A stretch of 64,000 nt of DNA, taken from positions 523,014-587,013 of the forward strand of contig JAQTTB010000001.1 of the NCBI GenBank assembly GCA_028710985.1. The letters are read 5' to 3'. The notes under the pieces were generated by a model, which saw only the letters and a program-made list of their open reading frames with translations, was not told the DNA's origin and made no database searches. This stretch comes from Patescibacteria group bacterium (GTDB lineage Bacteria > Patescibacteriota > Patescibacteriia > JAHJFT01). Positions 7,411 through 48,574 of this stretch are shown here, one piece after another. Positions within the stretch are counted from its first letter, which is position 1; each line of letters opens with the position of its first letter. The position numbers and the translations under genes were made by a program.

Positions 7411-7446
7411 AAAAAACGCCCCGAGCTTATCGAGGGGCGTTTTTCA
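7411..7446. terminator. Bidirectional rho-independent terminator (aaacgccccgagcttatcgaggggcgttttt)
   Basis: A GC-rich perfect hairpin flanked by A-run and T-run, lying between convergent genes. Confidence 0.6.
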
Positions 7447-8842: not shown

Positions 8843-10180
8843 ATGACTAAACATTATCATCTCATTGCCCTGGGCTGTCAGATGAATAAATCCGATTCCG
8901 AGCGCGCTGCCGCGTTACTCGATAGTCTCGGCCTGACTCAAACTCTTCGTCCCGAAGAGGCGGATTTTATTTTGATAAATACCTGCTCGGTGCGCCAGTC
9001 GGCCGAAGACCGCGTTTATGGGCAGGTGAAGAAATTTAATAAATTAAAAATCAAAAAGCCGGGGCTCATCATTGGCGTTACCGGTTGTATGCCCGGCCGT
9101 GACAAAAGAGGGGAATTTTTTAAAAAAATGCCCGGTCTTGATTTGTATTTCCCAATTAGCGACTTGCCGCATCTTCCGGCCATGCTCCGTGCCCGGAATC
9201 CGGAAATCGGCATTCTGGAAGTTGATCCCGATTATCTCAAAATCGCGCCAAAGCATCAAAACAAGTTTAAAGCATTCATTACAATCGAGACCGGCTGTGA
9301 TAAGTACTGCGCTTACTGCGTCGTGCCGTTCGCGCGCGGCCCGGTGCGCCATCGGCTACTCAGTGACATTCTGGTTGAGGCGCGCGCTCTCGCCGCCGGC
9401 GGTTGTCTGGAAATCACCCTGCTCGGCCAGACCGTGAATAATTACATAGCCGCGGATGCGGAAAATTTTAATTCAAAAAATCCGTTCAAAGACAACTTTG
9501 CCGCTCTGCTTTGGGAGCTTAATCAAATTTCCGGGATTGAACGCATCCACTTTACCGCGGCGCATCCGAGCCACATGACCGATGAGGTGATTGCCGCGCT
9601 CGCGCTGCCGCGCCAGGCCAATTATCTCCATCTCCCGGTCCAGTCGGGGAGCAATTCGGTACTCGCGAGGATGAATCGACCATATACGCGCGAAGAGTAT
9701 ATAGAAATTATCAAAAAAGTCCGCAGCGCGCGGCCGGGGATTGCCATCGGTACGGATATCATTGTCGGATTTCCGGGCGAAACAGCCGAGGAATTTGAGG
9801 AGACTCTGAGTCTCTACCGTGAAATTGAGTTTGATATATCATACAACGCGATTTATTCGCCGCGGTCCGGCACGGCCGCGGTTAAAGCCTATGGAGACGA
9901 TGTCCCGCGCGAGGAAAAAGAGTGGCGTTGGCAGGAGCTGGAAAACACCATGCGCGAAATCACTCTGCGGAAGAATCAGGCATACGCCGGCCGCGAGGTT
10001 TCCGTGCTTGTGGATTCATGCGCCGCCGGCATTTGCCGCGGCAATTCAGCAGAAATGAAGCTGGTGAATTTTTCACACCTCGGGGATTTGACAGGCCAAA
10101 TCCGGCCTGTTATTATTGAAGTCCCTAAACTGTGGATTTTGGAAGGTAAATTGGCCCTCATTAATGATAAAAAAGAGTAA
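8843..10180 (+). CDS. miaB: tRNA-i6A37 methylthiotransferase (radical SAM)
   Basis: 445 aa. An N-terminal MTTase domain, a radical-SAM CxxxCxxC motif (CDKYCAYCVVPFARG) and a C-terminal TRAM domain are present. Confidence 0.9.
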   Translation: MTKHYHLIALGCQMNKSDSERAAALLDSLGLTQTLRPEEADFILINTCSVRQSAEDRVYGQVKKFNKLKIKKPGLIIGVTGCMPGRDKRGEFFKKMPGLDLYFPISDLPHLPAMLRARNPEIGILEVDPDYLKIAPKHQNKFKAFITIETGCDKYCAYCVVPFARGPVRHRLLSDILVEARALAAGGCLEITLLGQTVNNYIAADAENFNSKNPFKDNFAALLWELNQISGIERIHFTAAHPSHMTDEVIAALALPRQANYLHLPVQSGSNSVLARMNRPYTREEYIEIIKKVRSARPGIAIGTDIIVGFPGETAEEFEETLSLYREIEFDISYNAIYSPRSGTAAVKAYGDDVPREEKEWRWQELENTMREITLRKNQAYAGREVSVLVDSCAAGICRGNSAEMKLVNFSHLGDLTGQIRPVIIEVPKLWILEGKLALINDKKE

Positions 10181-11096
10181 TAAACTCGTTGCCGTGGTTG
10201 GCCCGACGGCCGGCGGCAAGACGACCTGGAGCCTTGAATTAGCCAAAAAATTCAACGGCGAGATTGTTAATGCTGACTCGCGGCAGATTTACCGTTGGAT
10301 GGACGTCGGCACGGCCAAGGAGCCGGGCCGCTGGCGCCGGGTCGGCGGGCGGCGCTTTTATGAGGTTCAGGGCGTGCCGCATTATCTGATTGATTTTCTT
10401 GAACCGAACCGCGACTTTAGCGTCGCCGAATTCCAGCGCCGCGCCATCCGCCGCATCCGCGAAATCCAGTCGCGCGGCAAACTCCCGATTTTGGTTGGCG
10501 GTACCGGTCTCTACATTAAAGCGGTAATTGACAACATGAAGATTCCCAAGGTTAAAGCGAACCAGAATCTGCGCAAAAGCCTTGAGACCAAAAGCAATGA
10601 AGAGCTTTGGAGCCTTCTCGGTCGCATGGATCCCGGCGCCCTTAAGGTGGTTGATCCACAGAACAAACGCCGCATCATCCGCGCGCTTGAAGTCTGCATT
10701 TTGACGGGCAAGCCCTTTTCCGAACAGCGGGCCATGGGTAATCCGATTTTTGATGCATTGCAAATCGGCGTGCGCGTTCCGCGGCCGCTGCTTTACGAAA
10801 GAATTGACCGGAGAGTTGACCGGATGGTTAGAGAAGGCCTGGTTCAGGAAATTCAAAACTTGCTCTCCCGCAATTTTAAATGGGGGGACCCCGGGCTTTC
10901 GGGTATCGGCTACCGGCAGATGGGATGCTACTTGCGGGGCGAATGCGAGCTCAGGGATGCGATCGGATTTCTGAAAAAAGATACCCGTCGATATTCAAAG
11001 CGTCAGGAGACCTGGTTCAAGCGCGATTCGCGCGTGAACTGGCTGGATAATTATAATCAGGCCAAAAAATTAGTCCAGGAATTTTTACAAAAATAA
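10164..11096 (+). CDS. miaA: tRNA dimethylallyltransferase
   Basis: The P-loop VVGPTAGGKT plus DSRQIYRWMDVGTAKE motif identifies it. The chosen ATG at 10164 overlaps the miaB stop by 17 nt. The ORF track begins earlier, at 10116. Confidence 0.9.
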   Translation: MIKKSNKLVAVVGPTAGGKTTWSLELAKKFNGEIVNADSRQIYRWMDVGTAKEPGRWRRVGGRRFYEVQGVPHYLIDFLEPNRDFSVAEFQRRAIRRIREIQSRGKLPILVGGTGLYIKAVIDNMKIPKVKANQNLRKSLETKSNEELWSLLGRMDPGALKVVDPQNKRRIIRALEVCILTGKPFSEQRAMGNPIFDALQIGVRVPRPLLYERIDRRVDRMVREGLVQEIQNLLSRNFKWGDPGLSGIGYRQMGCYLRGECELRDAIGFLKKDTRRYSKRQETWFKRDSRVNWLDNYNQAKKLVQEFLQK

Positions 11097-11099
11097 AAA

Positions 11100-11156
11100 T
11101 ATCGCCCGGTACGGGCGATATTTTTTTGTAGAGGTCGCATATATGTGACCTCTACA
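11100..11156. terminator. Two adjacent hairpins (atcgcccggtacgggcgat and agaggtcgcatatatgtgacctct) between convergent miaA and gatB.
   Basis: Both are perfect stems with flanking T runs. The second belongs to the GCATATATG-loop family. Confidence 0.5.
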
Positions 11157-12665
11157 TTATTTTTGTAAAAATTTTTCAAGCAGAACCTTCGTGATATTCG
11201 GATCCGCGGTTCCTTCGGATTTTATCATCACCTGGCCGACAAAAAATTGGATGAGCGCGGTTTTTCCGGCGCGGTAGGCCTCGGCCTTGTCCGGATTATC
11301 TTCAACTACCTGGCGGACGATTTGTTCAATTTCCGCTACGTCGCTCATCTGCCCGAGTTCGCGGTCCTCCATAATCTGGCTCGGATCCTGGCCGGTTTCA
11401 AGCATGGCTGCAAGAATTTTTTGCCCGGCGGCGCTGCCGACCTTATTCGCGTAAATTAGGCTCACGAATTCGGCGAAATTTTCCGGCGTGATTTTCAGAT
11501 TCTTGATGTCAATATTTTTATCCGCCATGGCGCCCGCGAGCTTGGAGCAGAGCCATCCGCCGACAAGTTTCGCGAGTTTATTCTTGTTCTTTTCGTAAAT
11601 TTCTTCGGACGTGCCGTCCAGGTCCGGAACCGACGCCAGCCATTCCTTGAGTTCGCTCACGGTGTTTTCCGCGTATTCGGCCCAGTCGAGGTCGCTCGTA
11701 AGAAACCGCGCGTTCTCGCCCGAAAATCCGTATTCATCCATGAATCTTTTTCTCTTGGCGGCCGGAAGCTCCGGCAGGGCGGATTTTGCGCGGGTAATCA
11801 TGTCGCCCAAATCAAGCGGGGGAATATCCGGTTCGGGAAAATAGCGGTAATCTTGCTCGGCTTCCTTGACGCGTTGTTCCACGGTTTCGCCCGCATCTTC
11901 GTCCCAGCCGCGGGTTGACTGCTGGCTCGGCGGCTTCCCCTGTCCCCAGAGTTTTTCCTGGCGCATGATTTCATATTCCAGTGCGCGTTCAACGGCCTTG
12001 AATGAATTCAGGTTTTTGATTTCGGTTTTCGGAAACAGAGTCTGCGTATCGGCCGGCCGCAAGCTTACATTGGCGTCGCAGCGCAGCTCGCCGCGCTCCA
12101 TGTCGGCGTTGGAAACTCCGAGATAGCGCATAATTGTGCGCAGCTCTTGCAAAAAAATTTTGGCTTCAAACGGAGTCGCGATGTCCGGCGCGGTCACGAT
12201 TTCAATGAGCGGGGTGCCGCCGCGGTTGTAATCAACCAGCGTGGCGTCTTTTTCATCGTGAAAAGATTTAGCCGCGTCTTCTTCAAGATGCACCCGGATG
12301 ATATTTATGCGGGCATAGTTGCGCGGTCCCTTCGGAATTTCGATTTCAAGATAGCCGTCCTTGGCGATCGGCATGTCGTATTGCGATATCTGGTAGCCTT
12401 TCGGCAGATCCGGATAGAAATAATTCTTGCGGTCGAATTTTGAACGTTCCTGGATCGTGCAGCCCAGGGCCGCCGCGGCGCGAATGCCGAATTCAATGGC
12501 CGTGGAATTCACCACCGGCAAAGCGCCCGGCTGGCCGGTGCAAACCGAACAGACCGCCGTATTAGCCGGAGTGCCGTCCGGCACATTGGCGCACGGACAG
12601 AACATCTTGGTTTTAGTCTTGAGCTGAACGTGTATTTCCAGCCCGATGACTGGCTGATATTGCAT
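11157..12665 (-). CDS. gatB: Asp/Glu-tRNA amidotransferase subunit B
   Basis: 502 aa. The N-terminus reads MQYQPVIGLEIHVQL...MFCPCAN, and a C-terminal GatB/YqeY domain is present. Confidence 0.9.
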   Translation of the reverse strand: MQYQPVIGLEIHVQLKTKTKMFCPCANVPDGTPANTAVCSVCTGQPGALPVVNSTAIEFGIRAAAALGCTIQERSKFDRKNYFYPDLPKGYQISQYDMPIAKDGYLEIEIPKGPRNYARINIIRVHLEEDAAKSFHDEKDATLVDYNRGGTPLIEIVTAPDIATPFEAKIFLQELRTIMRYLGVSNADMERGELRCDANVSLRPADTQTLFPKTEIKNLNSFKAVERALEYEIMRQEKLWGQGKPPSQQSTRGWDEDAGETVEQRVKEAEQDYRYFPEPDIPPLDLGDMITRAKSALPELPAAKRKRFMDEYGFSGENARFLTSDLDWAEYAENTVSELKEWLASVPDLDGTSEEIYEKNKNKLAKLVGGWLCSKLAGAMADKNIDIKNLKITPENFAEFVSLIYANKVGSAAGQKILAAMLETGQDPSQIMEDRELGQMSDVAEIEQIVRQVVEDNPDKAEAYRAGKTALIQFFVGQVMIKSEGTADPNITKVLLEKFLQK

Positions 12666-25699: not shown

Positions 25700-25738
25700 A
25701 TGTATGGGTCGCATATATGCGCCCCGTACATTTATTTT
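25700..25738. terminator. Terminator hairpin tgtatgggtcgcatatatgcgccccgtaca (GCATATATGCG-loop family)
   Basis: Flanked by an A-run and a T-run. The plus strand gives the better pairing (U-G wobble). Confidence 0.55.
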
Positions 25739-26583
25739 CCCCACCCAATTACTCTCACCCGTCCGCACATATCGTCATACGGTTTAATCCGGTCGCGCGG
25801 GCCGATAAATTTGATTATTTTTTTGCCCTGCTCGGGATCAATTTCGAAATATGACTGCATGGAGTTGAGATTTGGCAAAATTTTCCGAATCTCGTTGATT
25901 AGCCGTCCGTAATATTTAAGTCCGTCTTTGCCGCCGTCAAGCGCGGCGCGCGGCTCGTATTTTTTCACATCCGCGGGGCACTCGCGCCACACCGCGGTCG
26001 GAAGATAGGGGAGATTGGCCACGATCAAAATATTGGGATTCTTTTTCCAGAATTCAATCGGCAAAGCCTTGAGCAAATCGGATTTTATAAAATCAATCTT
26101 TGCGCCAAGTTTTTTCGCGTTTTGTCGCGCGGTCTTAAGCGCGGCCGCCGAATTATCAATCGCAATGACTTTTACGCGCGGCTTGTTTTTGGCAATCGCA
26201 ATGGCAAGCGCGCCCGAGCCGGTACCTACATCGATTACGGCTGCGCGCGGATGTTTATTCAAATACTTCAACGCCAGGCTCACAAGCATTTCGCTTTCCG
26301 GCCGTGGAATAAGAACCTTTTTATTCACGCCGATCTTGAGTTTGTAAAAATATTTTATGCCCGTGAGATAGGCGACTGGCTCATGCCTGGTGCGGCGCCG
26401 AATTAACTTGGTAAATCGCGCCAGCTCCGGTGCTCGCAATTCTCTGTCCCGGTGCGCGAACAAAAAAACCCGGTCGCGTCCGAGCGCGTGCGCCAATAGA
26501 ATTTCGGCATCGAGATCTGGTGAATCAATATGATTCTGTTGTAAAATTTTCATTGCCCTGGAAAGGGCTTGGGTGATGGTCAT
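25732..26583 (-). CDS. prmC: Release-factor glutamine N5-methyltransferase
   Basis: Carries the SAM-binding DVGTGSGALAIAIAK and the NLPY (NPPY-type) motif. Confidence 0.85.
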   Translation of the reverse strand: MTITQALSRAMKILQQNHIDSPDLDAEILLAHALGRDRVFLFAHRDRELRAPELARFTKLIRRRTRHEPVAYLTGIKYFYKLKIGVNKKVLIPRPESEMLVSLALKYLNKHPRAAVIDVGTGSGALAIAIAKNKPRVKVIAIDNSAAALKTARQNAKKLGAKIDFIKSDLLKALPIEFWKKNPNILIVANLPYLPTAVWRECPADVKKYEPRAALDGGKDGLKYYGRLINEIRKILPNLNSMQSYFEIDPEQGKKIIKFIGPRDRIKPYDDMCGRVRVIGWGK

Positions 26584-26616
26584 ATCGTTATCATATCATG
26601 TTTATTGCATCATTCG

Positions 26617-26644
26617 GTAGGGGCGTATTGCAATACGCCCCTAC
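26617..26644. repeat. Perfect 28-bp palindrome GTAGGGGCGTATTGCAATACGCCCCTAC
   Basis: Read directly. It is a member of the GTAGGGGCG palindrome family. Confidence 0.7.
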
Positions 26645-26776
26645 AAGACGACCGCGCATTGACAACCCGGCGCGATTTTGGTACAAATCAATATCCCGCC
26701 GGAATATTTCCGGCCGGAAAACCATGGGTAAGGCTGGCGTCGCAATGCGGCGTTGGTAGGCCCAAGGAGGAAAGAG

Positions 26777-27388
26777 ATGTCCGAAAAGAAAATGATGAGT
26801 CCGAGGCAACTTCGCGAGCTCATGGCCGTGGTCAGCCGGCACCTGTCTATTCATCTGCCGGCCAAGGTGGCGCAGAGCGTGATCGACAAGCCCGGCGATT
26901 TGGAGTTTGAGCTCTGCGAGCTCTTCTGGCGCATCGCCGAAGCGAACGAGAAGGCAAGAAGGGCGGTGGAAGCGAAGCACATCATCGACTGCGACGCCGA
27001 CCCCTATCTGCTCGGCCTCTTCACCGTGGAAGAGCACCGGAGAAGCGGTCAGTTGGAGTGGGACCCGGACAAGGTCGTTCTTTACCTTTCCGATTTGCAG
27101 AGGGGTCGTAGTGTTGTCCAGGGCCACGCGCTCCGCAAGGAACTCCAAAATCAGTCGGTTCTGAACGCCTGCGTCCTGGATTACCTGCTCGTTCATCCAA
27201 ACCTCATTCCCATCATGTGGATGAGGATGCGGGTCTACTTCTGGGGTACGATTTATTGCGATCGAGAAGGTGACCTCTGCGTTCGCGGCCTCTTCTGGGA
27301 AGACGAAAAAGGGTGGTTCTGGCGCTACAAGCATCTTTCGCACGATTTCTACCGCGACGACACCGCGGCGGTTTCTGCAAGCGTCTAG
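26777..27388 (+). CDS. Hypothetical protein (higher-GC orphan gene flanked by palindromic repeats)
   Basis: An AAGGAGG RBS lies 7 nt upstream of an ATG at 26777. A private terminator (acccgtttgcattaaattgcaacgggtctttttt) sits downstream. No recognisable domain. Confidence 0.5.
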   Translation: MSEKKMMSPRQLRELMAVVSRHLSIHLPAKVAQSVIDKPGDLEFELCELFWRIAEANEKARRAVEAKHIIDCDADPYLLGLFTVEEHRRSGQLEWDPDKVVLYLSDLQRGRSVVQGHALRKELQNQSVLNACVLDYLLVHPNLIPIMWMRMRVYFWGTIYCDREGDLCVRGLFWEDEKGWFWRYKHLSHDFYRDDTAAVSASV

Positions 27389-27621
27389 TAGCGGCGCATT
27401 GCAATACGCTGCTACGCGCCGACCCCCTGACCCGTTTGCATTAAATTGCAACGGGTCTTTTTTATTTAAATGCGAGTAGGGGCGGACCCCTGCGTCCGCC
27501 CTGTTCGTCGGGCGTCCGCCCCTACCATTTGTCGTCACCAACAAACGGCCGGTCGTCGATTTTCACCGCGTAGGGGCGAACGGCCGTTCGCCCCTACCGT
27601 TGATCCGTAATACGCCCCTAC
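27388..27621. repeat. Cluster of GTAGGGGCG-family palindromes. The members are a degenerate copy at 27388-27415, a split copy at 27476-27535, a perfect copy at 27570-27597 and a half-site at 27607-27621. An intrinsic terminator at 27430-27463 lies among them.
   Basis: Read directly; the sequences are given in the findings. Confidence 0.65.
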
Positions 27622-27645
27622 CGGCGCAACCCCAATTCATTCCAT

Positions 27646-27673
27646 TTGATTTTAGGGGGAGGTATGATACAAT
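27646..27673 (+). promoter_or_regulatory. Promoter TTGATT-16-TGaTACAAT (extended -10) for the 27702 paralog
   Basis: Read directly. It lies in the duplicated leader segment. Confidence 0.4.
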
Positions 27674-27701
27674 AATATCAATTTAAAATTAAATTAAAAT
27701 T

Positions 27702-28421
27702 ATGGACAAAATCAACCCATCCATGCCCGGCGAGGCAAAAAATATGTCCGCGGTCTGGATAATCGTCGCCATCGTAATCGTCGCCGTCGCGCTCGGCGGA
27801 TTAATGTATTATTTTCAAACCCTGTCGCAAGAAAAATTCGTTGCGCAGGAACAGGCGATTAATGATTTGCGCGAAGAACTTGGTCAGCCGACGGTCGTGG
27901 CTGAGGAAGGGGTGGAAGAGGAAGGTTCGGCCGAGGAAGAATATCTTACCTTTGAATCCGAACCAGTTTCTGTTTTACCCGAGATATTCTCGTTTGAATA
28001 TGCCAAAGGTTGGCATATTTATCATGAATATGATCATGGATGGGGCGAGGAAAAAGAAATTAGCAAAATATTAGTTTCGCCTGACCCGCTTCAGATTGCG
28101 CTTGACGCCGAATATTTACCTCAAGTTTATATTCTTGTCGATTTTGACTCCGTGGATACTCTTGATGAGTTCGTCGATCGGAAGTATGGAGATTCGGTGG
28201 AAACGAGTGAGGACGTAATAATTGCCAACTATCCCGGAAAAAAGATACACGTTGTAGATGACAAGATCAGCGGAGAAGATATTGAGGTTTATGCCTTCGT
28301 ATCCCCCAATGCCGCGTATTCTATTTATATTTATTATCCCGGCATAAAACAAGCAAGCATTGACCTCCCGGCAGAATATCAGCGCATCATTGATTCATTC
28401 AAGATTGAGTCAGGCAGTTAA
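27702..28421 (+). CDS. Membrane-anchored hypothetical protein, paralog A
   Basis: The N-terminal 60 aa are near-identical to the 28631 gene (MDKINPSMPGEAKNMSAVWIIVAIVIV...QTLSQEKFVAQEQAI). An acidic linker and a divergent C-terminal domain follow. Confidence 0.55.
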   Translation: MDKINPSMPGEAKNMSAVWIIVAIVIVAVALGGLMYYFQTLSQEKFVAQEQAINDLREELGQPTVVAEEGVEEEGSAEEEYLTFESEPVSVLPEIFSFEYAKGWHIYHEYDHGWGEEKEISKILVSPDPLQIALDAEYLPQVYILVDFDSVDTLDEFVDRKYGDSVETSEDVIIANYPGKKIHVVDDKISGEDIEVYAFVSPNAAYSIYIYYPGIKQASIDLPAEYQRIIDSFKIESGS

Positions 28422-28432
28422 TCGCACGATTC

Positions 28433-28465
28433 AAAAAAGGCCGCGCGTTTATTGCCGGCCTTTTT
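28433..28465 (+). terminator. Terminator aaaaaaggccgcgcgtttattgccggccttttt
   Basis: Hairpin followed by a T-run after the stop of the 27702 gene. Confidence 0.55.
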
Positions 28466-28475
28466 GAATATACGC

Positions 28476-28545
28476 GCAGGGGCGTATTGTCGCGTAGGGG
28501 CGAACGGCCGTTCGCCCCTACCGTTGATCCGCAATACGCCCCTAC
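28476..28545. repeat. Nested palindrome. The outer arms are gcaGGGGCGTATTG ... GCAATACGCCCCTAC. The perfect inner palindrome GTAGGGGCGAACGGCCGTTCGCCCCTAC (28494-28521) is inserted between them.
   Basis: Read directly. Confidence 0.65.
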
Positions 28546-28569
28546 CGGCGCAACCCCAATTCATTCCAT

Positions 28570-28600
28570 TTGATTTTATCCGGGGGGGGGGTGGTATAAT
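28570..28600 (+). promoter_or_regulatory. Promoter TTGATT-19-TGgTATAAT carrying a G10 homopolymer (28582-28591) in the spacer.
   Basis: Read directly. The homologous position in the 27646 promoter has G5. Confidence 0.45.
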
Positions 28601-28630
28601 GCAATCAATAATTAAATCATTAAAATACAT

Positions 28631-29233
28631 ATGGACAAACTAAATGCATCCATGCCCGGCGTGGCAAAAAATATGTCCGCGGTCTGGATTATCGTCGCTA
28701 TCATCATCGTTGCCGCAATTCTCGGCGGAATGATGTATTATTTTCAAACCCTGTCGCAAGAAAAATTCGTTGCGCAGGAAGAGGCGATTGAGGCTCTACG
28801 CGCCGAGTTAAGCGAACCGGCCGCTTCAACTGCGGTAGAAGAAGAGGAGGCGGTTGCGGGAGATCAGGCCAAAGTCGAAGCAATTGATGAGCTTCAATAT
28901 GAAAACGATTATTATGGATTCAGCCTGTCATTCCCAGAGACATGGAGGGGCTATTCCGTTTATCATGAAGCCAATTCAATACATTTTGGTTTCGCGGCGG
29001 AGAAAGATCTCATGGCGATAGAAGTGATGGATTTGGAGGATTGGAAGATAATGAAAAAAGAATTGGATCTTCCGGGCCATGAAGCCGATGCGCTCTATAG
29101 CGCAGCCTACAGGGGCGAGAATGATAATTTCGCATTCTTTGGATGGGCGGCCCAAGACACGGTAAACGATGAGTTTATTCTTTCCAGAAGGATGGAAGTA
29201 GGGTCAATAATTAAAACGTTTAAAGCGAAATAG
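28631..29233 (+). CDS. Membrane-anchored hypothetical protein, paralog B
   Basis: MDKLNASMPGVAKNMSAVWIIVAIIIV...QTLSQEKFVAQEEAI. Tandem paralog of the 27702 gene. Confidence 0.55.
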   Translation: MDKLNASMPGVAKNMSAVWIIVAIIIVAAILGGMMYYFQTLSQEKFVAQEEAIEALRAELSEPAASTAVEEEEAVAGDQAKVEAIDELQYENDYYGFSLSFPETWRGYSVYHEANSIHFGFAAEKDLMAIEVMDLEDWKIMKKELDLPGHEADALYSAAYRGENDNFAFFGWAAQDTVNDEFILSRRMEVGSIIKTFKAK

Positions 29234-29242
29234 TTAAATAAA

Positions 29243-29285
29243 AAATCGCCCCGACGTTCACTTCATTCAGTCGGGACGATTTTTA
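29243..29285 (-). terminator. prfA terminator (hairpin tcgtcccgac...gtcggggcga plus U-run on the minus strand)
   Basis: The G-U wobble is satisfied only on the minus strand. Confidence 0.5.
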
Positions 29286-29310
29286 TTTTCTCAGTTCCCG
29301 ATTCACCGAT

Positions 29311-30381
<1,071 letters not shown>

Positions 30382-30394
30382 AAAAATAAATAAT

Positions 30395-30545
30395 GGATAT
30401 CCGCTCGTCGTCATTCCGAGCGAAGCCCCGATCGCAATCGGGGCAAAGCCGAGGAATCCCTTTTCTTCAATCCAGCCAGTCTGATTAAAGAGATTCCTCC
30501 GCTCATCCCCCGCGTTGCGGGGGACTCGGTCGGAATGACGAGCGT
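30395..30545 (-). ncRNA. Unclassified structured intergenic element between rpmE and prfA. A long-range stem encloses three hairpins.
   Basis: The outer arms are cgctcgtcgtcattccgagcga and ctcggtcggaatgacgagcg. The inner hairpins are gccccgatcgcaatcggggc, gaggaatc...gattcctc and cccccgcgttgcggggg. The strand assignment is an assumption from the flanking genes. Confidence 0.3.
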
Positions 30546-30552
30546 TGTATTT

Positions 30553-30575
30553 AAAAATCCCCGCGCGGGGATTTT
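30553..30575 (-). terminator. rpmE terminator aatccccgcgcggggattttt (minus-strand sense)
   Basis: Perfect hairpin followed by a T-run immediately downstream of rpmE. Confidence 0.5.
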
Positions 30576-30633
30576 GTGGGCGAGTGTAAGGGCGATTCAC
30601 GAATCGCCCAAAAACCGCCCGGCTGTAATTCAG

Positions 30634-38345: not shown

Positions 38346-38460
38346 TTAAATGAAAAATGCCCCGAGTCTATCGCGGGCATTTTTTTGTCGGCCGGGTGAT
38401 TGACATTTTTCCGCCGTTATGGTTAGGTTTAATCAGCACTTTGAGAAGGAGGGACGTTTC

Positions 38461-39301: not shown

Positions 39302-39385
39302 ATTAATAAATAAAATACCCTGAGTTTATCGAAGGGTATTTTTATTAAAAAAAGGCCGTCCCAAGGAGGGAGCGGCAGAGCGCGG

Positions 39386-44047: not shown

Positions 44048-44452
44048 ATGGCAGAAGAGAAAAAAGACGTCGTGGTTCCGGAAAAATTCAAGAAGCTCGT
44101 TGAGGAAGTTGAAAAAATGAGCGTACTTGATCTCTCGGAACTCGTTAGCATTCTTGAGGATAAATTCGGCGTTTCGGCCGCCGCTCCGGCAGTTGCCGTT
44201 GCCGCCGCCGCTCCAGTCGCCGCCGAAGCCGCCGATGAAAAGACCGAGTTCAATCTTGAACTCCTTGAAGCCGGCGCCAACAAGATCAACGTGATTAAGG
44301 TGGTTCGTGAAGTCACGGGTTTAGGCCTCGCCGATGCCAAGGCCATCGTTGACAGCGCACCGAAGATAGTGAAAGAAGCCATGCCAAAGGCTGATGCCGA
44401 AGCCGCCAAAAAGAAGATTGAGGAAGCCGGCGGAAAAGCAGCTCTCAAATAA
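44048..44452 (+). CDS. rplL: 50S ribosomal protein L7/L12
   Basis: An Ala-rich hinge and a C-terminal domain [28 protein letters not shown]. Confidence 0.9.
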
Positions 44453-44465
44453 TTGGTTACAAAAT

Positions 44466-44506
44466 AAAAAAAGAACGGCCGTGTAATTATGCGGCCGTTC
44501 TTTTGA
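44466..44506. terminator. Terminator/palindrome aaaataaaaaaagaacggccg-tgtaattatg-cggccgttctttt. It is the left copy of a pair.
   Basis: Read directly. Its 21-nt left arm is identical to the one at 46296. Confidence 0.6.
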
Positions 44507-44554
44507 TTTTTTTAAAAAAAGAGGCATCGCGTTTGCGATGCCCGAGCGGCGTAG

Positions 44555-45460
44555 TTAAATACCGAGTTTTCTTAATGCCCTCAGTCCGTTAAAGCGGTCG
44601 ACGAGCTTGGTTTCAGTGCGGTTGTGCGGAGCACAGTATTCGGTCGCCCCCCAGAAAGCGCCCATCATGCCAGCGGCCTGGGCAAAATTTGCACGGCCGC
44701 GTTTGACCGAGTACAGGCGGCCGCGTATCTTGCGCAGATAGTGCCGCGGGATAAAGATGCGGCTGGTCTTATCCATGGCAATGCCGTTGATGACCACCGG
44801 AGCCTTTTGGATGTCGCGGACAATGGATTTCTTATGGTTGATCTGGAATCCAGCCGCGAGAATGATGCGCCGTATCATCTGCCGCTTTCTTTTGCCGATC
44901 GGTTCAGTCGCCGAAAAGGTCAGGTCGTCGAGATAGCGCGTATAGATGATGCCGTGGCGCCGGCAGAATTCGCCGAGCGGCCGGTCAAGAAGTTCGCCGG
45001 CATAGCGGTTGGCAAGATCCGGCGAAGCCGGCGCGCCGGTTGCGAGCCCACCCTCGTCTGCTATGCAGTACTTATTAAGAAAGGCGAGAAGCCCTGTCTC
45101 GTCCTCCATCAGCCGTTCGTCAAGATTCATGAGTATCCCGGCGAGCCGCTCGGCGTCCACGCTCGGATAGAAATTGTGGATGTCGGTGAGGTAGAAAAAG
45201 CGGTTGCCGCGGTGCCGGAGCACATTTTTCTTGGGGGATGAGCCGCGCATCGCGCCGGTGGCGTGCGGCAGGGGATGGTGCTCGAGAAGGTGGCGCCGCA
45301 AGTAAAAGATTAGCCCGCGGTGGACCTGGCGCATCGCGTTATTTGGCGCGTAGAGCGTGCGCATTTTTACGGTCTTCGCTACCGGATTTACGTCTCTGTA
45401 GGTAAATTTGTTGAACCCCGGAGTCCCATCTATGTTTTTCAGAATTATATCAAAGAGCAT
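44555..45460 (-). CDS. Retron-type reverse transcriptase
   Basis: An internal ATG at 45460 carries a TAAGGAGGG RBS. The motifs match the order seen in retron Ec86 RT: KMRTLYAPNNAMRQVHRGL, LTDIHNFYPSV, LATGAPASPDLANRY, GIIYTRYLDDLTFS (YxDD), FQINHKKS and VVINGIAM. The length is about 300 aa. The ORF-track N-terminal extension to 45880 reads through non-coding repeats. Confidence 0.8.
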   Translation of the reverse strand: MLFDIILKNIDGTPGFNKFTYRDVNPVAKTVKMRTLYAPNNAMRQVHRGLIFYLRRHLLEHHPLPHATGAMRGSSPKKNVLRHRGNRFFYLTDIHNFYPSVDAERLAGILMNLDERLMEDETGLLAFLNKYCIADEGGLATGAPASPDLANRYAGELLDRPLGEFCRRHGIIYTRYLDDLTFSATEPIGKRKRQMIRRIILAAGFQINHKKSIVRDIQKAPVVINGIAMDKTSRIFIPRHYLRKIRGRLYSVKRGRANFAQAAGMMGAFWGATEYCAPHNRTETKLVDRFNGLRALRKLGI

Positions 45461-45537
45461 GGCGCCCTCCTTATAGATTTTTGTGTAGGTTGATTTTAGT
45501 ACAGCGCCGAATAAAATGCAAGTAAATTTTTTTGGTA

Positions 45538-45900
45538 TAAAAAACGCATCAAACCAGGGGTTTGACGCGAAGGGAGAAACCCGATTTTCATCGGGCAGTG
45601 AATTCACAGCGGCGGGTTGGCCAAGTTCGTTGCCCGATTCTGGGTTCTGCGGACAACGATCAAGAGAACAGACTTTGCCGCTGAGGCTTCGATGCAGGGC
45701 CGAAACGGCAGCGCCGAGGCCGCAGGCCGGGGCGCCCTCTGTGCCGAAAGAAGAAGAGAAGGGGCGGATACTATGGCAATTTCCGTTTCCGGAAATCCCG
45801 CTGGCGCACCTTGATGCGCCAACCCTCGTGGGCAAGAGCACTTTGGCGTCCAGCCAGAACCAGGAAACCGTCTTGGCCAACCCGGACTGGACTTGGCTTT
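45538..45900 (-). ncRNA. Structured non-coding RNA unit 1, a candidate retron msr-msd-like RNA
   Basis: a1/a2-like long-range complement gggttggccaag (45613-45624) / cttggccaaccc (45872-45883). Hairpin cccga-N-tcggg. A terminal hairpin gcatcaaa...tttgacgc next to an A/T run. Homologous to unit 2 with compensatory changes. Confidence 0.4.
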
Positions 45901-45911
45901 ATCCTATCATA

Positions 45912-46295
45912 AACAAAAAAACGCATCAAACCAGGGGGTTTGATGCGAAGAGAGAGAGTCCCGACTCGGTCGGGAAGAAAGTGCAGCGGCGGGTTTGAGT
46001 CATTGTCCGCAAGGGACTTTCCGGGCATGGGAGCTTGCCGCTGAAGATACCCGTGGCGTCCGAGGGCACTGAACAACGGGCCGAATCAGCCACTGCGGCC
46101 GCTGATCCGCCTCATGCAGATACCAACGGGAGCGCTTCGGGTTGCCCAGGGGCGATGGGGTACTGTTCAAAGCCCTGGTTTAACCCTTTGGCGCACCTGA
46201 AATGCGCCAAGACGATGAGCACCGAGGATCTCACCCGGAATGAACTAGCTCAAACCCAGCCAAGGTGGCTATGAAGAGGGTAGCATAAAATTCAA
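45912..46295 (-). ncRNA. Structured non-coding RNA unit 2, tandem paralog of unit 1
   Basis: a1/a2-like complement cgggtttgag (45992-46001) / ctcaaaccc (46250-46258). Hairpin cccgac-tcg-gtcggg. Terminal hairpin gcatcaaa...tttgatgc followed by an A/T run. Confidence 0.4.
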
Positions 46296-46336
46296 AATAA
46301 AAAAAGAACGGCCGCGATATCGTGGGCCGTTCTTTT
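46296..46336. terminator. Terminator/palindrome aaaataaaaaaagaacggccg-cgatatcgtg-ggccgttctttttt. It is the right copy of the pair.
   Basis: Read directly. Confidence 0.6.
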
Positions 46337-48574
46337 TTATTCGCTGAATCCGAAATTCCAGACGCCGTTGTCGGCCAGCACCCAGATTTGGCGTGCCGTG
46401 CGATCGATGTAAAAACTTTTTATATTCTGCAGGTCGTTCAGGAGGTATTGAGTTTTGAGTTTACCGTCCTTGGCCAGTACTACAACACGTTTTCCGGCCG
46501 GGTCAAGAATAAATATATTGTCCGTACCCTCGGTCGTCCAAATTTGCGTCGCGCCCGTCAGCGCGGGATCAATGGTCGTAGCCGACCAGGATTGTTTTTC
46601 ACCGGTATAGAATTTATAAATTTCACCATTTGATTTCAGGGCGTAAATCGAGCCGTCAATCGTAATGGCGACTGCGTCCGAAAGATTGACATTCGCAGTT
46701 TTAATCCAGGCCGCGCCGGCCGCGAGCCCGGAATCGGGCGAGCGGTGCTGCTTAAATATTTGGTTCGCCGTGGTGTCCAAGACATAAATATTTGAATTCC
46801 AGCCGGCCGCGTCAATAAAGCTCTTTTGTTCGGCCGCGGCGGCGAGGGGAACGTCCCTCCACGAAAGTCCGGCCACGTCAATTTCCGAAGCCCCTGGGCG
46901 CTGGTCGAAAACCAAATATGAATTATCGCCGGATTTGTAAATCGCGGTAATGCTTTGTATATCCGCATTTTCCCAGTCAACTTCCTGCCAGGCATTCGCG
47001 TCGTCGCGCCAGACATAAAGTTCTTTTGCCCCGGAAAGAATCAAAGTTTTATCGGCGTTTCGCAGGAGATAACGAAAGTTAATCGTCTGGCCTTCGGCGC
47101 TGAGCGGCATGTCGGCGACTTTCTCTAAATCGTTTGGAATGACTTCATGGCGGAGCTCTTGGCGTAAAATATCAATTTGGGCGAGAAGTCCCTGTTTGAT
47201 TTCGCGCTGATCGCGCTTTGCTTCCGGTAGCGACTGGATTGCGGATAGCGCTTGGCTCACAAGCTCACGCGTGCGTTCCTCGTCGCCGTAGATCAGGGTA
47301 CTCTCGGCCTCGTCTTTTATTTGAGTGATCTCAATCACTTTATTATTATAAACCGCCTCGTCTTCGCGTGCATGTTTCCGATAGTTGAGATAAATCAGGC
47401 TCCATGCAAAAAGTAGCACCAGGATAAGGGCGATGATAAAAACCGATTTATTTTTCTTGCCGAGATGGCTGAACCAGCCGACCGAGCGGTCTCCGGTTTC
47501 CTGGGCATCGCTCTTATAGCTCGCGATGGTTTCGGCGCGTTTGCCGTGGAAGTTCGTAATGATAAAAAATAAGTTTTTGAAGAAGCGGCCGGTGATGCCG
47601 ATTGCGCGGAGCGTGATGGCACCGATCCAAATAAAGAATTTGGCAATGCTCCGGGGGAGTTCGCGCGGGGTTGGAGCGATTTTTTCCTCATATTTCGGGC
47701 CGCGTATTGGTATCAGTCGTGAAATTACCGCAGTGAGCCCAGCCCAAATCTTTGAGGCAAACCCAGTGCCGCCGCCTAAAAGATATCGGTCGGTTTCCGC
47801 GGTAGTCGCCTTAAGATGCTCAAGCGAACCTCGGAAATTCTTCGGTGCCGCCGCTTCGGTGCCGACCGGGATAAGTTCTTCATAATGCTGGATGATAATG
47901 GCCGTATATCCGCCGCGCAGACTGCCGTGCAAAAGTTCATTGCGCAGATATTCGACGGATTCGACCGGTTTTTTCGCGGTTACAATCGGCAACAGCCGTT
48001 CTTCGGGGAAGGCTTCGGCCAGTTCGGAGTTTGAGATTATTATGGCATCCCCGCTTTGGATGGAGCCGTACATTACATTTTCAAAAATTTTAACGGGATT
48101 AAAATTATCCGGATCGGATTGAACGTTCTTCGTAAGATCAAAAACGCGGTAACCTTTGCCATCCTGCTTCTGGAAAAACATCATTTTATTCTGGCCGATC
48201 GCGGAGAACGAAAGGTCCGTGCCGGAGCAAGCGGCGATTAAGATATTCAATTTCTTAAGATCCACCGGATTGGATTCTTTGGAGATAAAATCCGTGATAT
48301 TTTTATTGGTCGCCTGTAGGGATTTTTCAAACTCCGCGCCAAAGTCAATGCCATGCTCTTCCTGATAAAATTTTTCAATGCCGTCGATAAAGTTTTCGGT
48401 CAAACGTTCGTAGGCTGGATGGATGGAGTCGATTTTAATAATGCCAAAAATAGATCCGCCTTCATGCGCCGCACCCGGTGGAATTTCAAAATTAAAAACG
48501 CGGTTAATGCATTGGCGGTTCGTTGCGCTTTCTAGGAAAAGCTCGTTTATGAGTATCTCCGGCTTCTTTGACAT
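46337..48574 (-). CDS. Large hypothetical membrane protein. It has an N-terminal cytoplasmic domain, a central TM helix and a C-terminal extracytoplasmic beta-rich domain.
   Basis: 745 aa. The central helix is SVFIIALILVLLFAWSLIYLNY. No confident domain assignment. Confidence 0.5.
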   Translation of the reverse strand: MSKKPEILINELFLESATNRQCINRVFNFEIPPGAAHEGGSIFGIIKIDSIHPAYERLTENFIDGIEKFYQEEHGIDFGAEFEKSLQATNKNITDFISKESNPVDLKKLNILIAACSGTDLSFSAIGQNKMMFFQKQDGKGYRVFDLTKNVQSDPDNFNPVKIFENVMYGSIQSGDAIIISNSELAEAFPEERLLPIVTAKKPVESVEYLRNELLHGSLRGGYTAIIIQHYEELIPVGTEAAAPKNFRGSLEHLKATTAETDRYLLGGGTGFASKIWAGLTAVISRLIPIRGPKYEEKIAPTPRELPRSIAKFFIWIGAITLRAIGITGRFFKNLFFIITNFHGKRAETIASYKSDAQETGDRSVGWFSHLGKKNKSVFIIALILVLLFAWSLIYLNYRKHAREDEAVYNNKVIEITQIKDEAESTLIYGDEERTRELVSQALSAIQSLPEAKRDQREIKQGLLAQIDILRQELRHEVIPNDLEKVADMPLSAEGQTINFRYLLRNADKTLILSGAKELYVWRDDANAWQEVDWENADIQSITAIYKSGDNSYLVFDQRPGASEIDVAGLSWRDVPLAAAAEQKSFIDAAGWNSNIYVLDTTANQIFKQHRSPDSGLAAGAAWIKTANVNLSDAVAITIDGSIYALKSNGEIYKFYTGEKQSWSATTIDPALTGATQIWTTEGTDNIFILDPAGKRVVVLAKDGKLKTQYLLNDLQNIKSFYIDRTARQIWVLADNGVWNFGFSE

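What the first reader, a model, noticed from the sequence alone, without database searches (positions are those of the whole stretch)
44466..46336. RT-ncRNA cassette bracketed by near-identical terminator-like palindromes
The 1.8-kb block holding the RT and both ncRNA units is flanked by two palindromic elements. They share an identical 21-nt left arm, AAAATAAAAAAAGAACGGCCG, and a matching right arm, (C/G)GGCCGTTCTTTT. Only the 10-nt loops differ.

The left copy doubles as the rplL terminator. The right copy is the terminator of the 745-aa membrane-protein gene.

Direct repeats of this kind around a defence-type cassette suggest one of two things. The cassette may have inserted into, or recombined between, copies of a genome-wide terminator/REP-like element. 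Alternatively it may be a mobile hotspot. The GAACGGCCGTTC core also recurs in the GTAGGGGCGAACGGCCGTTCGCCCCTAC palindromes elsewhere in the window.
Basis: seen in the sequence. Interest (0 to 1): 0.6.

Follow-up and report, generated by a model that had tools for sequence, protein, structure and literature searches.

The report
Duplicated terminator flanks inserted RT cassette
The two near-identical palindromes are two copies of the ordinary two-way transcription terminator that related bacteria carry once between rplL and a conserved 745-aa gene; a 1.8-kb retron-like reverse-transcriptase-plus-RNA cassette was inserted there and the terminator was duplicated, a scar also found around several related cassettes.

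Summary
A 22-nt exact repeat plus a matching second arm forms two hairpins, at 44460-44504 and 46293-46336. They bracket a 1788-bp block and have no other copy in the 64-kb window.

The block holds a 301-aa retron-clade RT and two diverged 377-nt structured ncRNA genes. All three lie on the minus strand and each has its own terminator.

Five related Patescibacteria lineages have rplL directly convergent with the 745-aa gene. Only 54-58 bp lie between them, containing one bidirectional terminator. So the cassette is an insertion, and the native terminator is now present twice.

The same signature recurs around the RT family. Locus-specific direct repeats of 24-145 nt, usually a terminator hairpin, flank 5 of 46 other loci. 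None of 86 control positions shows this.

Repeat length and content vary. One locus carries hitch-hiking host gene fragments. No recombinase or conserved element ends are present. I therefore read the repeats as a recombination or repair scar of acquisition at a palindrome, not as REP elements or a transposase footprint. An RT-driven route is not excluded.

The copies differ almost only in their loops. The genome-wide copy number could not be measured.

The parts
44048..44452 (+). rplL (ribosomal protein L7/L12), the left flanking gene, convergent on the cassette
   Evidence: Pfam Ribosomal_L12 at 4e-25 and Ribosomal_L12_N at 2e-16.
44460..44504 (.). Left copy of the duplicated bidirectional terminator, next to rplL. 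The hairpin is 44469-44504, with an A-tract before it and a T-tract after it.
   Evidence: RNA fold is -24.1 kcal/mol on the rplL-sense strand, where G.U pairs close the loop, and -20.4 on the other strand.
44513..44543 (-). The RT gene's own intrinsic terminator: GGCATCGC-AAAC-GCGATGCC followed by a T7 run
   Evidence: Terminator scan, 9 pairs of which 6 are G-C, T-run tail; sequence read.
44555..45460 (-). 301-aa retron-clade reverse transcriptase with a YLDD catalytic box
   Evidence: Pfam RVT_1 at 1.6e-10. PADLOC retron RT models reach 1.6e-34. NCBIfam retron_St85_RT scores 116 bits, below its cutoff of 235. The best solved structures are all retron RTs, led by Ec86 at 2e-19.
45539..45915 (-). 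ncRNA unit 1, nearer the RT. It is a 377-nt structured RNA that ends in its own terminator (45545-45569 plus T6).
   Evidence: Fold -157 kcal/mol, z -4.2, with a long closing stem. Terminator. Aligns to unit 2 with conserved hairpins and compensatory changes.
45916..46292 (-). ncRNA unit 2, farther from the RT. It is a diverged paralogue of unit 1 and ends in its own terminator (45922-45947 plus T7).
   Evidence: Fold -148.5 kcal/mol, z -3.8. Alignment. Terminator. No Rfam family matches.
46293..46336 (.). Right copy of the duplicated bidirectional terminator, next to the 745-aa gene. The hairpin is 46300-46338 and overlaps that gene's stop codon.
   Evidence: RNA fold is -23 to -24 kcal/mol on both strands.
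46337..48574 (-). Conserved 745-aa gene with no Pfam family, the right flanking gene. It is transcribed towards the cassette.
   Evidence: ORF and translation. Homologues at 53-61% identity lie in conserved synteny with rplL.

Best explanation
What it is: the two palindromes are two copies of one ordinary intrinsic, bidirectional transcription terminator. That terminator ancestrally sat alone in the roughly 52-bp spacer between the convergent genes rplL and the 745-aa gene.

What happened: in this lineage a 1788-bp block (44505-46292) was acquired at that palindrome. The block carries two structured ncRNA genes and a retron-clade RT, each with its own terminator. The whole ~45-bp terminator ended up on both sides of the block.

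What the copies do now (inferred from position and fold): the right copy stops 745-aa-gene transcripts before they run into the ncRNA genes. The left copy stops the highly expressed rplL operon from reading antisense into the RT, and it backs up the RT's own terminator. Both copies are therefore kept under selection.

How the duplication arose (inferred, not shown): I commit to a DNA-level recombination or repair event at the palindrome during acquisition of foreign DNA. Candidate routes are one-sided homologous anchoring with an illegitimate second junction, or a break at the hairpin tip followed by copying of the palindrome on both ends. I favour this over a transposase, an integrase or a REP system.

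Why the loops differ (inferred): the centre of a palindrome is the only weakly constrained part and is known to be mutation-prone.
For: Shown:
- The repeat is real and unique in the window.
- Five related lineages (745-aa homologues at 53-61% identity; loci L002/L003, L004, L186/L187, L188/L189, L190) have rplL directly convergent with the 745-aa gene. The spacer is 54-58 bp and holds a single A-tract/stem/T-tract hairpin. No RT is present.
- Removing one repeat plus the block rebuilds a 52-nt spacer of the same layout. The tail TTTTTTTATTTTG resembles the orthologous tails TTTTTTATTTTTT, TTTTTTTATTGGG, TTTTTTGTTTTG and TTTTTTGTTTG. L004 shares AAAAAAGAAC. The repeated sequence is therefore native and target-derived.
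- There is no recombinase or transposase in the block or in the syntenic neighbourhood. No group II intron or other known RNA family is present.
- Block GC is 56-58% against 45-50% in the flanks.

Family level:
- Among RT relatives at 40-51% identity, locus-specific direct repeats flank the RT-plus-ncRNA block in L125 (30 nt hairpin), L155 (33 nt hairpin), L169 (24 nt), L156/L157 (145 nt, terminator plus leader) and L152 (118 nt of the miaA 5' end). L136 (19 nt hairpin) is borderline.
- That is 5 of 46 loci against 0 of 86 control positions in Patescibacteria DNA, P = 0.004.

For a recombination scar rather than transposition:
- Repeat length ranges from 19 to 145 nt and content varies.
- The block ends share no conserved termini.
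- In L152 the block carries a truncated DUF1653 gene fragment, and the repeat is mosaic: 24 nt with only synonymous differences, then 87 identical nt. Relatives have DUF1653-miaA or ParB-miaA with no RT.
- In L156 the same repeat also flanks a non-RT (UbiA-family) gene.
Against: - The empty sites come from distant relatives (at most 61% protein identity), so the exact pre-insertion sequence and the age of the event are unknown.
- About 85% of family loci show no flanking repeat. The duplication is therefore not an obligatory product of however these cassettes arrive, or else it decays.
- The control set is pseudo-elements in core DNA, not other accessory genes. The enrichment may reflect 'recent insertion' in general rather than anything about this RT.
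- In the window the repeat boundaries coincide almost exactly with the palindrome. A structure-specific enzymatic mechanism would predict that, and a generic recombination accident explains it less naturally.
- Loops differ at about half their positions while 35 arm and tract positions are identical. Simple drift after an in-place duplication does not explain this well.
- The genome-wide copy number of the hairpin was not obtained.
- Terminator function is inferred from sequence only.
Confidence: 0.7

Rival explanations
1. Att-like or Campbell-type integration. A circular form of the cassette carried its own copy of the terminator, taken from a previous related host. It recombined with the resident terminator through host homologous or Xer-type recombination. 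This left hybrid left and right copies whose loops differ because they come from two alleles.
For: The arms are identical but the loops are very different, as expected for two alleles joined in a shared core. The L152 repeat is mosaic: one segment differs only by synonymous changes, as if it evolved inside a functional miaA elsewhere, and it is followed by 87 identical nt. Direct repeats of 22-145 nt could also support excision.
Against: No integrase is present in or near any block examined. The L152 block carries a truncated foreign gene fragment, which fits a linear chromosomal fragment better than a defined circular element. No conserved core sequence is shared between loci. The first duplication would still need a separate explanation.
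Confidence: 0.15
2. A self-mobile retroelement. The RT, with its ncRNA, inserts a cDNA copy of the cassette at terminator hairpins, for example using a stalled replication fork or the 3' end of a terminated transcript. The whole hairpin is duplicated as a long target-site duplication.
For: Flanking duplications are enriched around this RT family. In four to five loci the duplicated unit is essentially a whole terminator hairpin. In the window the upstream junction lies 9 nt beyond the extended stem, roughly where a terminated transcript would end. Variable-length target duplications are typical of target-primed reverse transcription (general knowledge).
Against: The 301-aa RT has no endonuclease or integrase domain. 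Every family member seen is single-copy, in a different context, and at most 51% identical to the window RT, so there are no recent bursts. The three modules have separate terminators, so one full-length RNA template is unlikely. Block ends extend 9-25 nt beyond the last terminator's T-run. L152 carries host gene fragments, and in L156 a non-RT gene is flanked by the same repeat. Most loci lack repeats.
Confidence: 0.1
3. Copies of a dispersed REP-like or terminator repeat family, or a recombination hotspot. The cassette simply sits between two members of the family.
For: The genome does hold other palindrome families: GTAGGGGCG...CCCCTAC at 26.6-28.5 kb, and terminators with shared loops. The genome-wide count could not be made.
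Against: There is no third copy in 64 kb (about 9% of the 744-kb contig) at up to 3 mismatches. The relatives' sites hold one hairpin and no alternative cargo. The tail is orthologous to the relatives' terminators. The hairpin core occurs singly, never paired and never with the 21-mer, in 120 unrelated genomes, so it is a generic terminator stem.
Confidence: 0.04
4. Chance or convergent similarity of two independent terminators, or an assembly artefact.
For: Terminators in this genome share a common style: A-tract, short GC stem, 10-12-nt loop, T-tract.
Against: A 22-nt exact identity that includes the irregular A-tract has an expected count of 0.01. A second assembly is identical over 15.8 kb. 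None of 120 genomes with the same stem core shares the 21-mer.
Confidence: 0.01

Closest known systems
Retron-Eco5 (Ec107) insertion between pyrE and ttk in E. coli
   Same: A stand-alone retron (RT plus ncRNA) with no integrase or prophage context sits at a palindromic intergenic sequence between conserved genes. Strains with an empty site are known (review PMC6868368; it cites Herzer et al. 1992).
   Different: Ec107 replaces the 34-bp palindrome. Here the palindrome is kept and duplicated on both sides. This RT family is from Patescibacteria and has a ~300-nt ncRNA (two copies in the window) transcribed separately from the RT.
Bidirectional intrinsic (rho-independent) terminators between convergent genes
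   Same: An A-tract, a GC-rich stem and a T-tract lie in the short spacer between two convergent stop codons. Folds are stable on both strands. Relatives carry the orthologous single copy.
   Different: The terminator is present twice as a direct repeat 1.8 kb apart.
Homology-facilitated illegitimate recombination and 'minimal mobile elements' in naturally transformable bacteria (recalled from the literature on Acinetobacter, Streptococcus and Neisseria; not checked here)
   Same: Accessory DNA without mobility genes lies between conserved genes. Junctions are locus-specific. L152 shows one homologous junction and one illegitimate junction, with carried-over donor gene fragments.
   Different: Duplication of the anchor, and duplication limited to a hairpin, are not the usual reported outcome. 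Competence and the transfer route are not shown for this organism.
Bacterial class C group II introns, which insert just after terminator hairpins (recalled knowledge)
   Same: An RT-encoding element is associated with intrinsic terminators.
   Different: No ribozyme is detected. The RT is of the retron clade and lacks a maturase or endonuclease domain. IIC introns do not duplicate the hairpin.
attL/attR repeats of integrative elements, and target-site duplications of transposons
   Same: Direct repeats of target-derived sequence bracket inserted DNA.
   Different: There is no integrase or transposase, no terminal inverted repeats and no fixed repeat length. The repeat sequence differs at every locus.

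Membership tests
Intrinsic bidirectional terminator | GC-rich stem-loop with an upstream A-tract and a downstream T-tract, stable as RNA on both strands | tested here: met
   Stems of 13-14 perfect pairs. Folds of -20 to -24 kcal/mol, z -5 to -6, on both strands.
Intrinsic bidirectional terminator | Located directly after the stop codons of the genes it serves, and conserved in position in relatives | tested here: met
   7 nt after the rplL stop, and overlapping the 745-aa gene's stop. A single hairpin occupies the same spacer in 5 lineages.
Intrinsic bidirectional terminator | Transcripts actually end there | not testable with these tools
   This needs Term-seq or RNA-seq of the organism.
REP / REPIN-like dispersed palindrome family | Many copies dispersed in intergenic regions of the genome | tested here: not met
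   Only the two copies in 64 kb at up to 3 mismatches. The whole-genome count was not obtained, so this holds for about 9% of the 744-kb contig.
REP / REPIN-like dispersed palindrome family | An associated RAYT (IS200/IS605-like) transposase | not tested
   Only genes near the cassette were scanned. None is a transposase.
Transposon target-site duplication | An element-encoded transposase, defined (often inverted-repeat) ends, and a fixed short duplication length | tested here: not met
   No transposase is present. Block ends are not conserved between loci. Repeats range from 19 to 145 nt.
Integrative element att sites | An integrase in the element and an identical core shared by attL and attR | tested here: not met
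   An identical 22-nt core exists, but no integrase lies in the 1.8-kb block or its neighbourhood.
Group II intron (class C) at a terminator | Ribozyme domains and an RT with a maturase (X) domain | tested here: not met
   No Rfam group II hit even at E up to 5. TIGR04416 scores 22 bits against a cutoff of 300.
Retron (for the cassette inside the repeats) | RT belonging to the retron clade | tested here: met
   The best PADLOC, NCBIfam and PDB matches are all retron RTs (1.6e-34; 116 bits; Ec86 at 2e-19). The score is below NCBIfam's retron_St85 cutoff, so this is a distinct subfamily.
Retron (for the cassette inside the repeats) | An adjacent msr-msd ncRNA closed by inverted repeats (a1/a2), with a branching G | tested here: inconclusive
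   Structured ~300-nt domains with a long closing stem and a conserved AACCC..GCUG 3' motif occur in the window units and in relatives. The ncRNA is much longer than known msr-msd, is separately terminated, and has no Rfam match. The priming G was not identified.
Retron (for the cassette inside the repeats) | Production of msDNA and an associated effector protein | tested here: not met
   The window block contains no effector gene. L169 has an HD-domain gene. msDNA production cannot be tested here.

The most novel reading that the evidence does not exclude
The Patescibacteria RT-plus-ncRNA cassettes are autonomous retroelements, or elements that depend on a host nuclease. They home to intrinsic-terminator hairpins and duplicate the entire hairpin on insertion. 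That would be the first mobility mechanism shown for a retron-clade RT, and a new kind of structure-directed target duplication.
Probability: 0.1. Interest if true: 0.85.

Novelty: new variant of a known kind. Interest (0 to 1): 0.45.

Why it matters
How retrons and other stand-alone defence-type RT cassettes move between genomes is unresolved. They encode no mobility functions, and only anecdotal insertion sites are known, such as Ec107.

This locus offers a clean before-and-after pair: five empty sites against one filled site in a highly conserved ribosomal-protein neighbourhood of a minimal genome. It also gives a small series of related cassettes that carry long, locus-specific duplications of host terminators.

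That yields concrete junction sequences to test. The candidates are recombination at palindromes, one-sided homologous capture, or RT-dependent insertion.

It also shows a practical point for annotation. A pair of 'REP-like' palindromes may simply be one native terminator duplicated by an insertion.

Tried and rejected
1. A genome-wide count of the hairpin was attempted with the single genome-contig scan, using the pattern AAGAACGGCC N6-16 GGCCGTTCTT. It was useful only as a calibration: the stem core is a generic terminator stem, it is always single, and it never carries the 21-mer.
2. The exact protein look-up of the 301-aa RT failed because the deposited gene call is longer. The 745-aa gene was used instead.
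3. nhmmer with the two ncRNA units against all RT loci found no sequence-level homologues. Only the architecture is shared.
4. The RT family was sought in viral contigs. Only a 27%-identical RT turned up, so there is no phage vehicle.
5. The 21-mer was sought in viral contigs. The single hit lies inside a coding region without a hairpin, so it is chance.
6. A more sensitive search for degenerate flanking repeats, limited to the intergenic gaps next to each RT, added no new positive loci. Three extra RT loci (L191, L193, L195) also lack repeats.
7. I tested whether one loop is the reverse complement of the other, which would indicate a flipped palindrome. This was rejected by inspection for all pairs. 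In L155, the one pair where the loop base does change to its complement (G to C), the asymmetric flanks are in direct orientation.
8. I tested whether miaA N-termini of relatives reveal which L152 copy is foreign. This was inconclusive: MQKLIVIL is common among relatives, and MNNHK was not seen among the 40 best-scoring homologues whose N-termini were printed.
9. The link between the hairpin and the GTAGGGGCG palindromes was rejected.
10. Literature searches for retrons in Patescibacteria/CPR, or for terminator-duplicating RT elements, found nothing relevant.
Full report
**Observation.** The 21-mer AAAATAAAAAAAGAACGGCCG occurs exactly twice on the + strand, at 44461 and 46294. Shuffles give an expected count of 0.01, and allowing 3 mismatches adds no further site. 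The identity is 22 nt once the preceding C is counted. The full repeat units are 44460-44504 and 46293-46336.

Each unit is a hairpin with an A-tract before it and a T-tract after it. The left hairpin has a 13-bp stem and 10-nt loop; the right has a 14-bp stem and 11-nt loop. Both are stable as RNA on both strands, at -20 to -24 kcal/mol with z about -5 to -6. All differences between the copies lie in or next to the loop. A second, independent assembly is identical over 15.8 kb.

**What lies between the copies.** The 1788-bp block (44505-46292) is read on the minus strand. It contains three modules:
- ncRNA unit 2 (46292-45916) and ncRNA unit 1 (45915-45539). These are 377-nt paralogues with conserved hairpins, compensatory changes and long closing stems (z about -4). 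Each ends in its own hairpin plus T-run.
- A 301-aa RT (45460-44555) with its own terminator (44543-44522 plus T7).

The RT is of the retron clade by several measures:
- PADLOC retron models reach 1.6e-34.
- NCBIfam retron_St85_RT scores 116 bits, below its cutoff of 235.
- All the best solved structures are retron RTs, led by Ec86 at 2e-19.

No Rfam family matches the RNAs, and no group II ribozyme is present. The block is GC-richer than its flanks, 56-58% against 45-50%. The host is a Patescibacteria MAG.

**Empty sites.** The 745-aa gene has homologues at 53-61% identity. I fetched five distinct lineages (L002/L003, L004, L186/L187, L188/L189, L190). In all of them the gene is directly convergent with rplL. 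The neighbourhood is syntenic, and the spacer is 54-58 bp with one A-tract/stem/T-tract hairpin.

Deleting the block plus one repeat from the window leaves a 52-nt spacer of the same design. The window's tail TTTTTTTATTTTG resembles the tails of the orthologous terminators, and L004 shares AAAAAAGAAC. The repeated sequence is therefore the native terminator of this site, now present twice. It was not brought in by the element. None of the relatives carries other cargo at the site, so it is not a general hotspot.

**Not a REP family.** No third copy exists in the 64-kb window. Each had one copy and none had the 21-mer. This shows the stem is a generic terminator stem, but it left the genome-wide count for this MAG undone.

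The GTAGGGGCGAACGGCCGTTCGCCCCTAC palindromes belong to a different repeat. It heads a tandemly duplicated leader-plus-gene unit inserted between prfA and prmC. The shared 12-mer is at chance level.

**The RT family.** About 65 homologues at 40-51% identity exist, mostly in Patescibacteria metagenomes, with a wide gap to the nearest named retron family. No phage copies were found.

I tested 46 further independent loci. Significant direct repeats, with one copy upstream and one downstream of the RT-plus-ncRNA block, occur in five:
- L125: 30-nt hairpin.
- L155: 33-nt hairpin.
- L169: 24 nt.
- L156/L157: 145 nt, comprising a terminator hairpin, leader and RBS, present three times.
- L152: 118 nt of the 5' end of miaA.

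L136 (19-nt hairpin) is borderline. No such repeat appeared at 86 control positions in Patescibacteria DNA, giving P = 0.004. The repeat sequences are different at every locus. About 85% of loci have none, even in a more sensitive search.

The ncRNA architecture is shared across the family: a long closing stem GGGUU.../...AACCC, followed by GCUG. The RNA can lie upstream or downstream of the RT.

**What the related loci say about mechanism.**
- L152: the upstream repeat is a truncated miaA (39 codons) sitting in the native position. It is followed by a truncated DUF1653 gene fragment, then the ncRNA region, the RT, and a complete miaA. The first 24 nt of the repeat differ by synonymous changes only, and the next 87 nt are identical. 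Relatives have DUF1653-miaA or ParB-miaA without an RT. This looks like a chromosomal segment from another lineage captured through one homologous junction (miaA) and one illegitimate junction, with duplication of the anchor.
- L156: the same 145-nt repeat also brackets a UbiA-family gene.
- Block ends share no motif across loci, and no recombinase is present.

Together these points favour a recombination or repair scar over a transposase, an integrase or a defined retroelement end. In the window, L125, L136 and L155 the duplicated unit is almost exactly the palindrome. That suggests the hairpin itself directs where the break or the copying stops. This step is inference.

**Loops.** In all five hairpin pairs the copies differ in the loop. 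Combined P is about 2e-4 that this is a random placement of the differences. In the window about half of the loop positions differ while 35 arm and tract positions are identical. Three of the changes are C/T or G/A transitions.

The left copy's loop forms G.U pairs only on the rplL-sense strand, giving -24.1 against -20.4 kcal/mol. Possible reasons, none tested here, are:
- the loop is the only unconstrained part;
- palindrome centres are mutation-prone;
- interrupting the repeat protects the cassette from deletion;
- the two copies stem from two alleles.

**How it works now (inferred from position and fold).** The right copy ends 745-aa-gene transcripts before the ncRNA genes. The left copy ends rplL transcripts, prevents antisense transcription into the RT, and backs up the RT's own terminator. 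The cassette is thus an insulated three-promoter, three-terminator island.

**Comparison with known systems.** The closest precedent is Retron-Eco5 (Ec107), which replaces a 34-bp palindromic intergenic sequence and has no associated mobility genes. Eco1 and Eco2 replace about 180 bp next to a terminator (PMC6868368). Here the palindrome is duplicated, not replaced.

The locus fails the defining tests for REP families, transposon target duplications, integrase att sites and group IIC introns (see the membership table). The RT is of the retron clade. The long, separately terminated, duplicated ncRNA and the lack of an effector gene keep the cassette from being filed as a typical retron.

**Verdict.** The palindromes themselves are ordinary: one native bidirectional terminator, duplicated. 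The insertion reading is well supported. The REP, hotspot and GTAGGGGCG readings are not.

The modest novelty is a recurrent, locus-specific duplication of terminators and other targets around a Patescibacteria retron-like RT family. This gives testable junctions for the open question of how such cassettes are acquired. Main caveats:
- the relatives are distant;
- the positive fraction in the family is a minority;
- the controls are not matched to accessory genes;
- no genome-wide count was obtained;
- there are no expression data.

Noticed in passing
window 25732-30600: prfA (29311-30600, minus) and prmC (25732-26583, minus), usually adjacent, are separated by a ~2.7-kb insert on the other strand. 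The insert holds an ORF at about 26778-27388 and two paralogous genes (27702-28421, 28631-29233). Each paralogue is preceded by a 99%-identical 88-nt leader that starts with the perfect 28-nt palindrome GTAGGGGCGAACGGCCGTTCGCCCCTAC. Related palindromes lie at 26617, 27388 and about 27476.
   Followed up: partly
window 7412-7444, 38353-38384, 39312-39342: Three terminator-like hairpins have different stems but nearly the same 11-nt loop, GAG(C/T)(T/C)TATCG(A/C). This is the opposite pattern to the rplL pair. The right rplL-site copy has a similar ..GATATCG.. loop. It may be a conserved loop motif or a protein-binding site.
   Followed up: no
L152 5311-7115: The RT block lies between a truncated miaA (39 codons, in the native position) and a full miaA. 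A DUF1653 gene fragment (5432-5575) is carried along. The repeat is mosaic: 24 nt with synonymous-only differences, then 87 identical nt. Relatives L196 and L197 lack the RT.
   Followed up: yes
L156 33-2757 (same element in L157): A 145-nt unit (terminator hairpin, leader and RBS) is present three times. It brackets a UbiA-family gene and, separately, the RT-plus-ncRNA block. The RT start codon uses the repeat's RBS. The third copy has a different hairpin loop (GATA versus AACA).
   Followed up: partly
L169 4110-7333: The block between the flanking 24-nt repeats holds a 521-aa HD-domain gene divergent from the RT. This is a possible effector partner that the window cassette lacks.
   Followed up: no
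window 45539-46292; L125 731-1075; L155 7030-7399: The ncRNAs of this RT family share an architecture: a ~250-300-nt multi-branched domain closed by a long stem GGGUU.../...AACCC, followed by ..GCUG, a small hairpin and a terminator. They share no detectable sequence homology. The RNA lies upstream of the RT in some loci and downstream in others. No Rfam family matches.
   Followed up: partly
window 44469-44504: The left hairpin copy is asymmetric. Its loop closes through G.U pairs only on the rplL-sense strand (-24.1 against -20.4 kcal/mol). This hints that the two copies have specialised for one direction each since the duplication.
   Followed up: partly
window 11095-11156: Two different perfect palindromes (14-bp and 10-bp stems) sit back to back between two convergent ORFs, 10116-11096 on the plus strand and 11157-12665 on the minus strand.
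   Followed up: no
L198 4706-4726 (IMG/VR contig): The only exact 21-mer match in viral contigs lies inside a 760-aa ORF with no hairpin. It is a chance match.
   Followed up: yes
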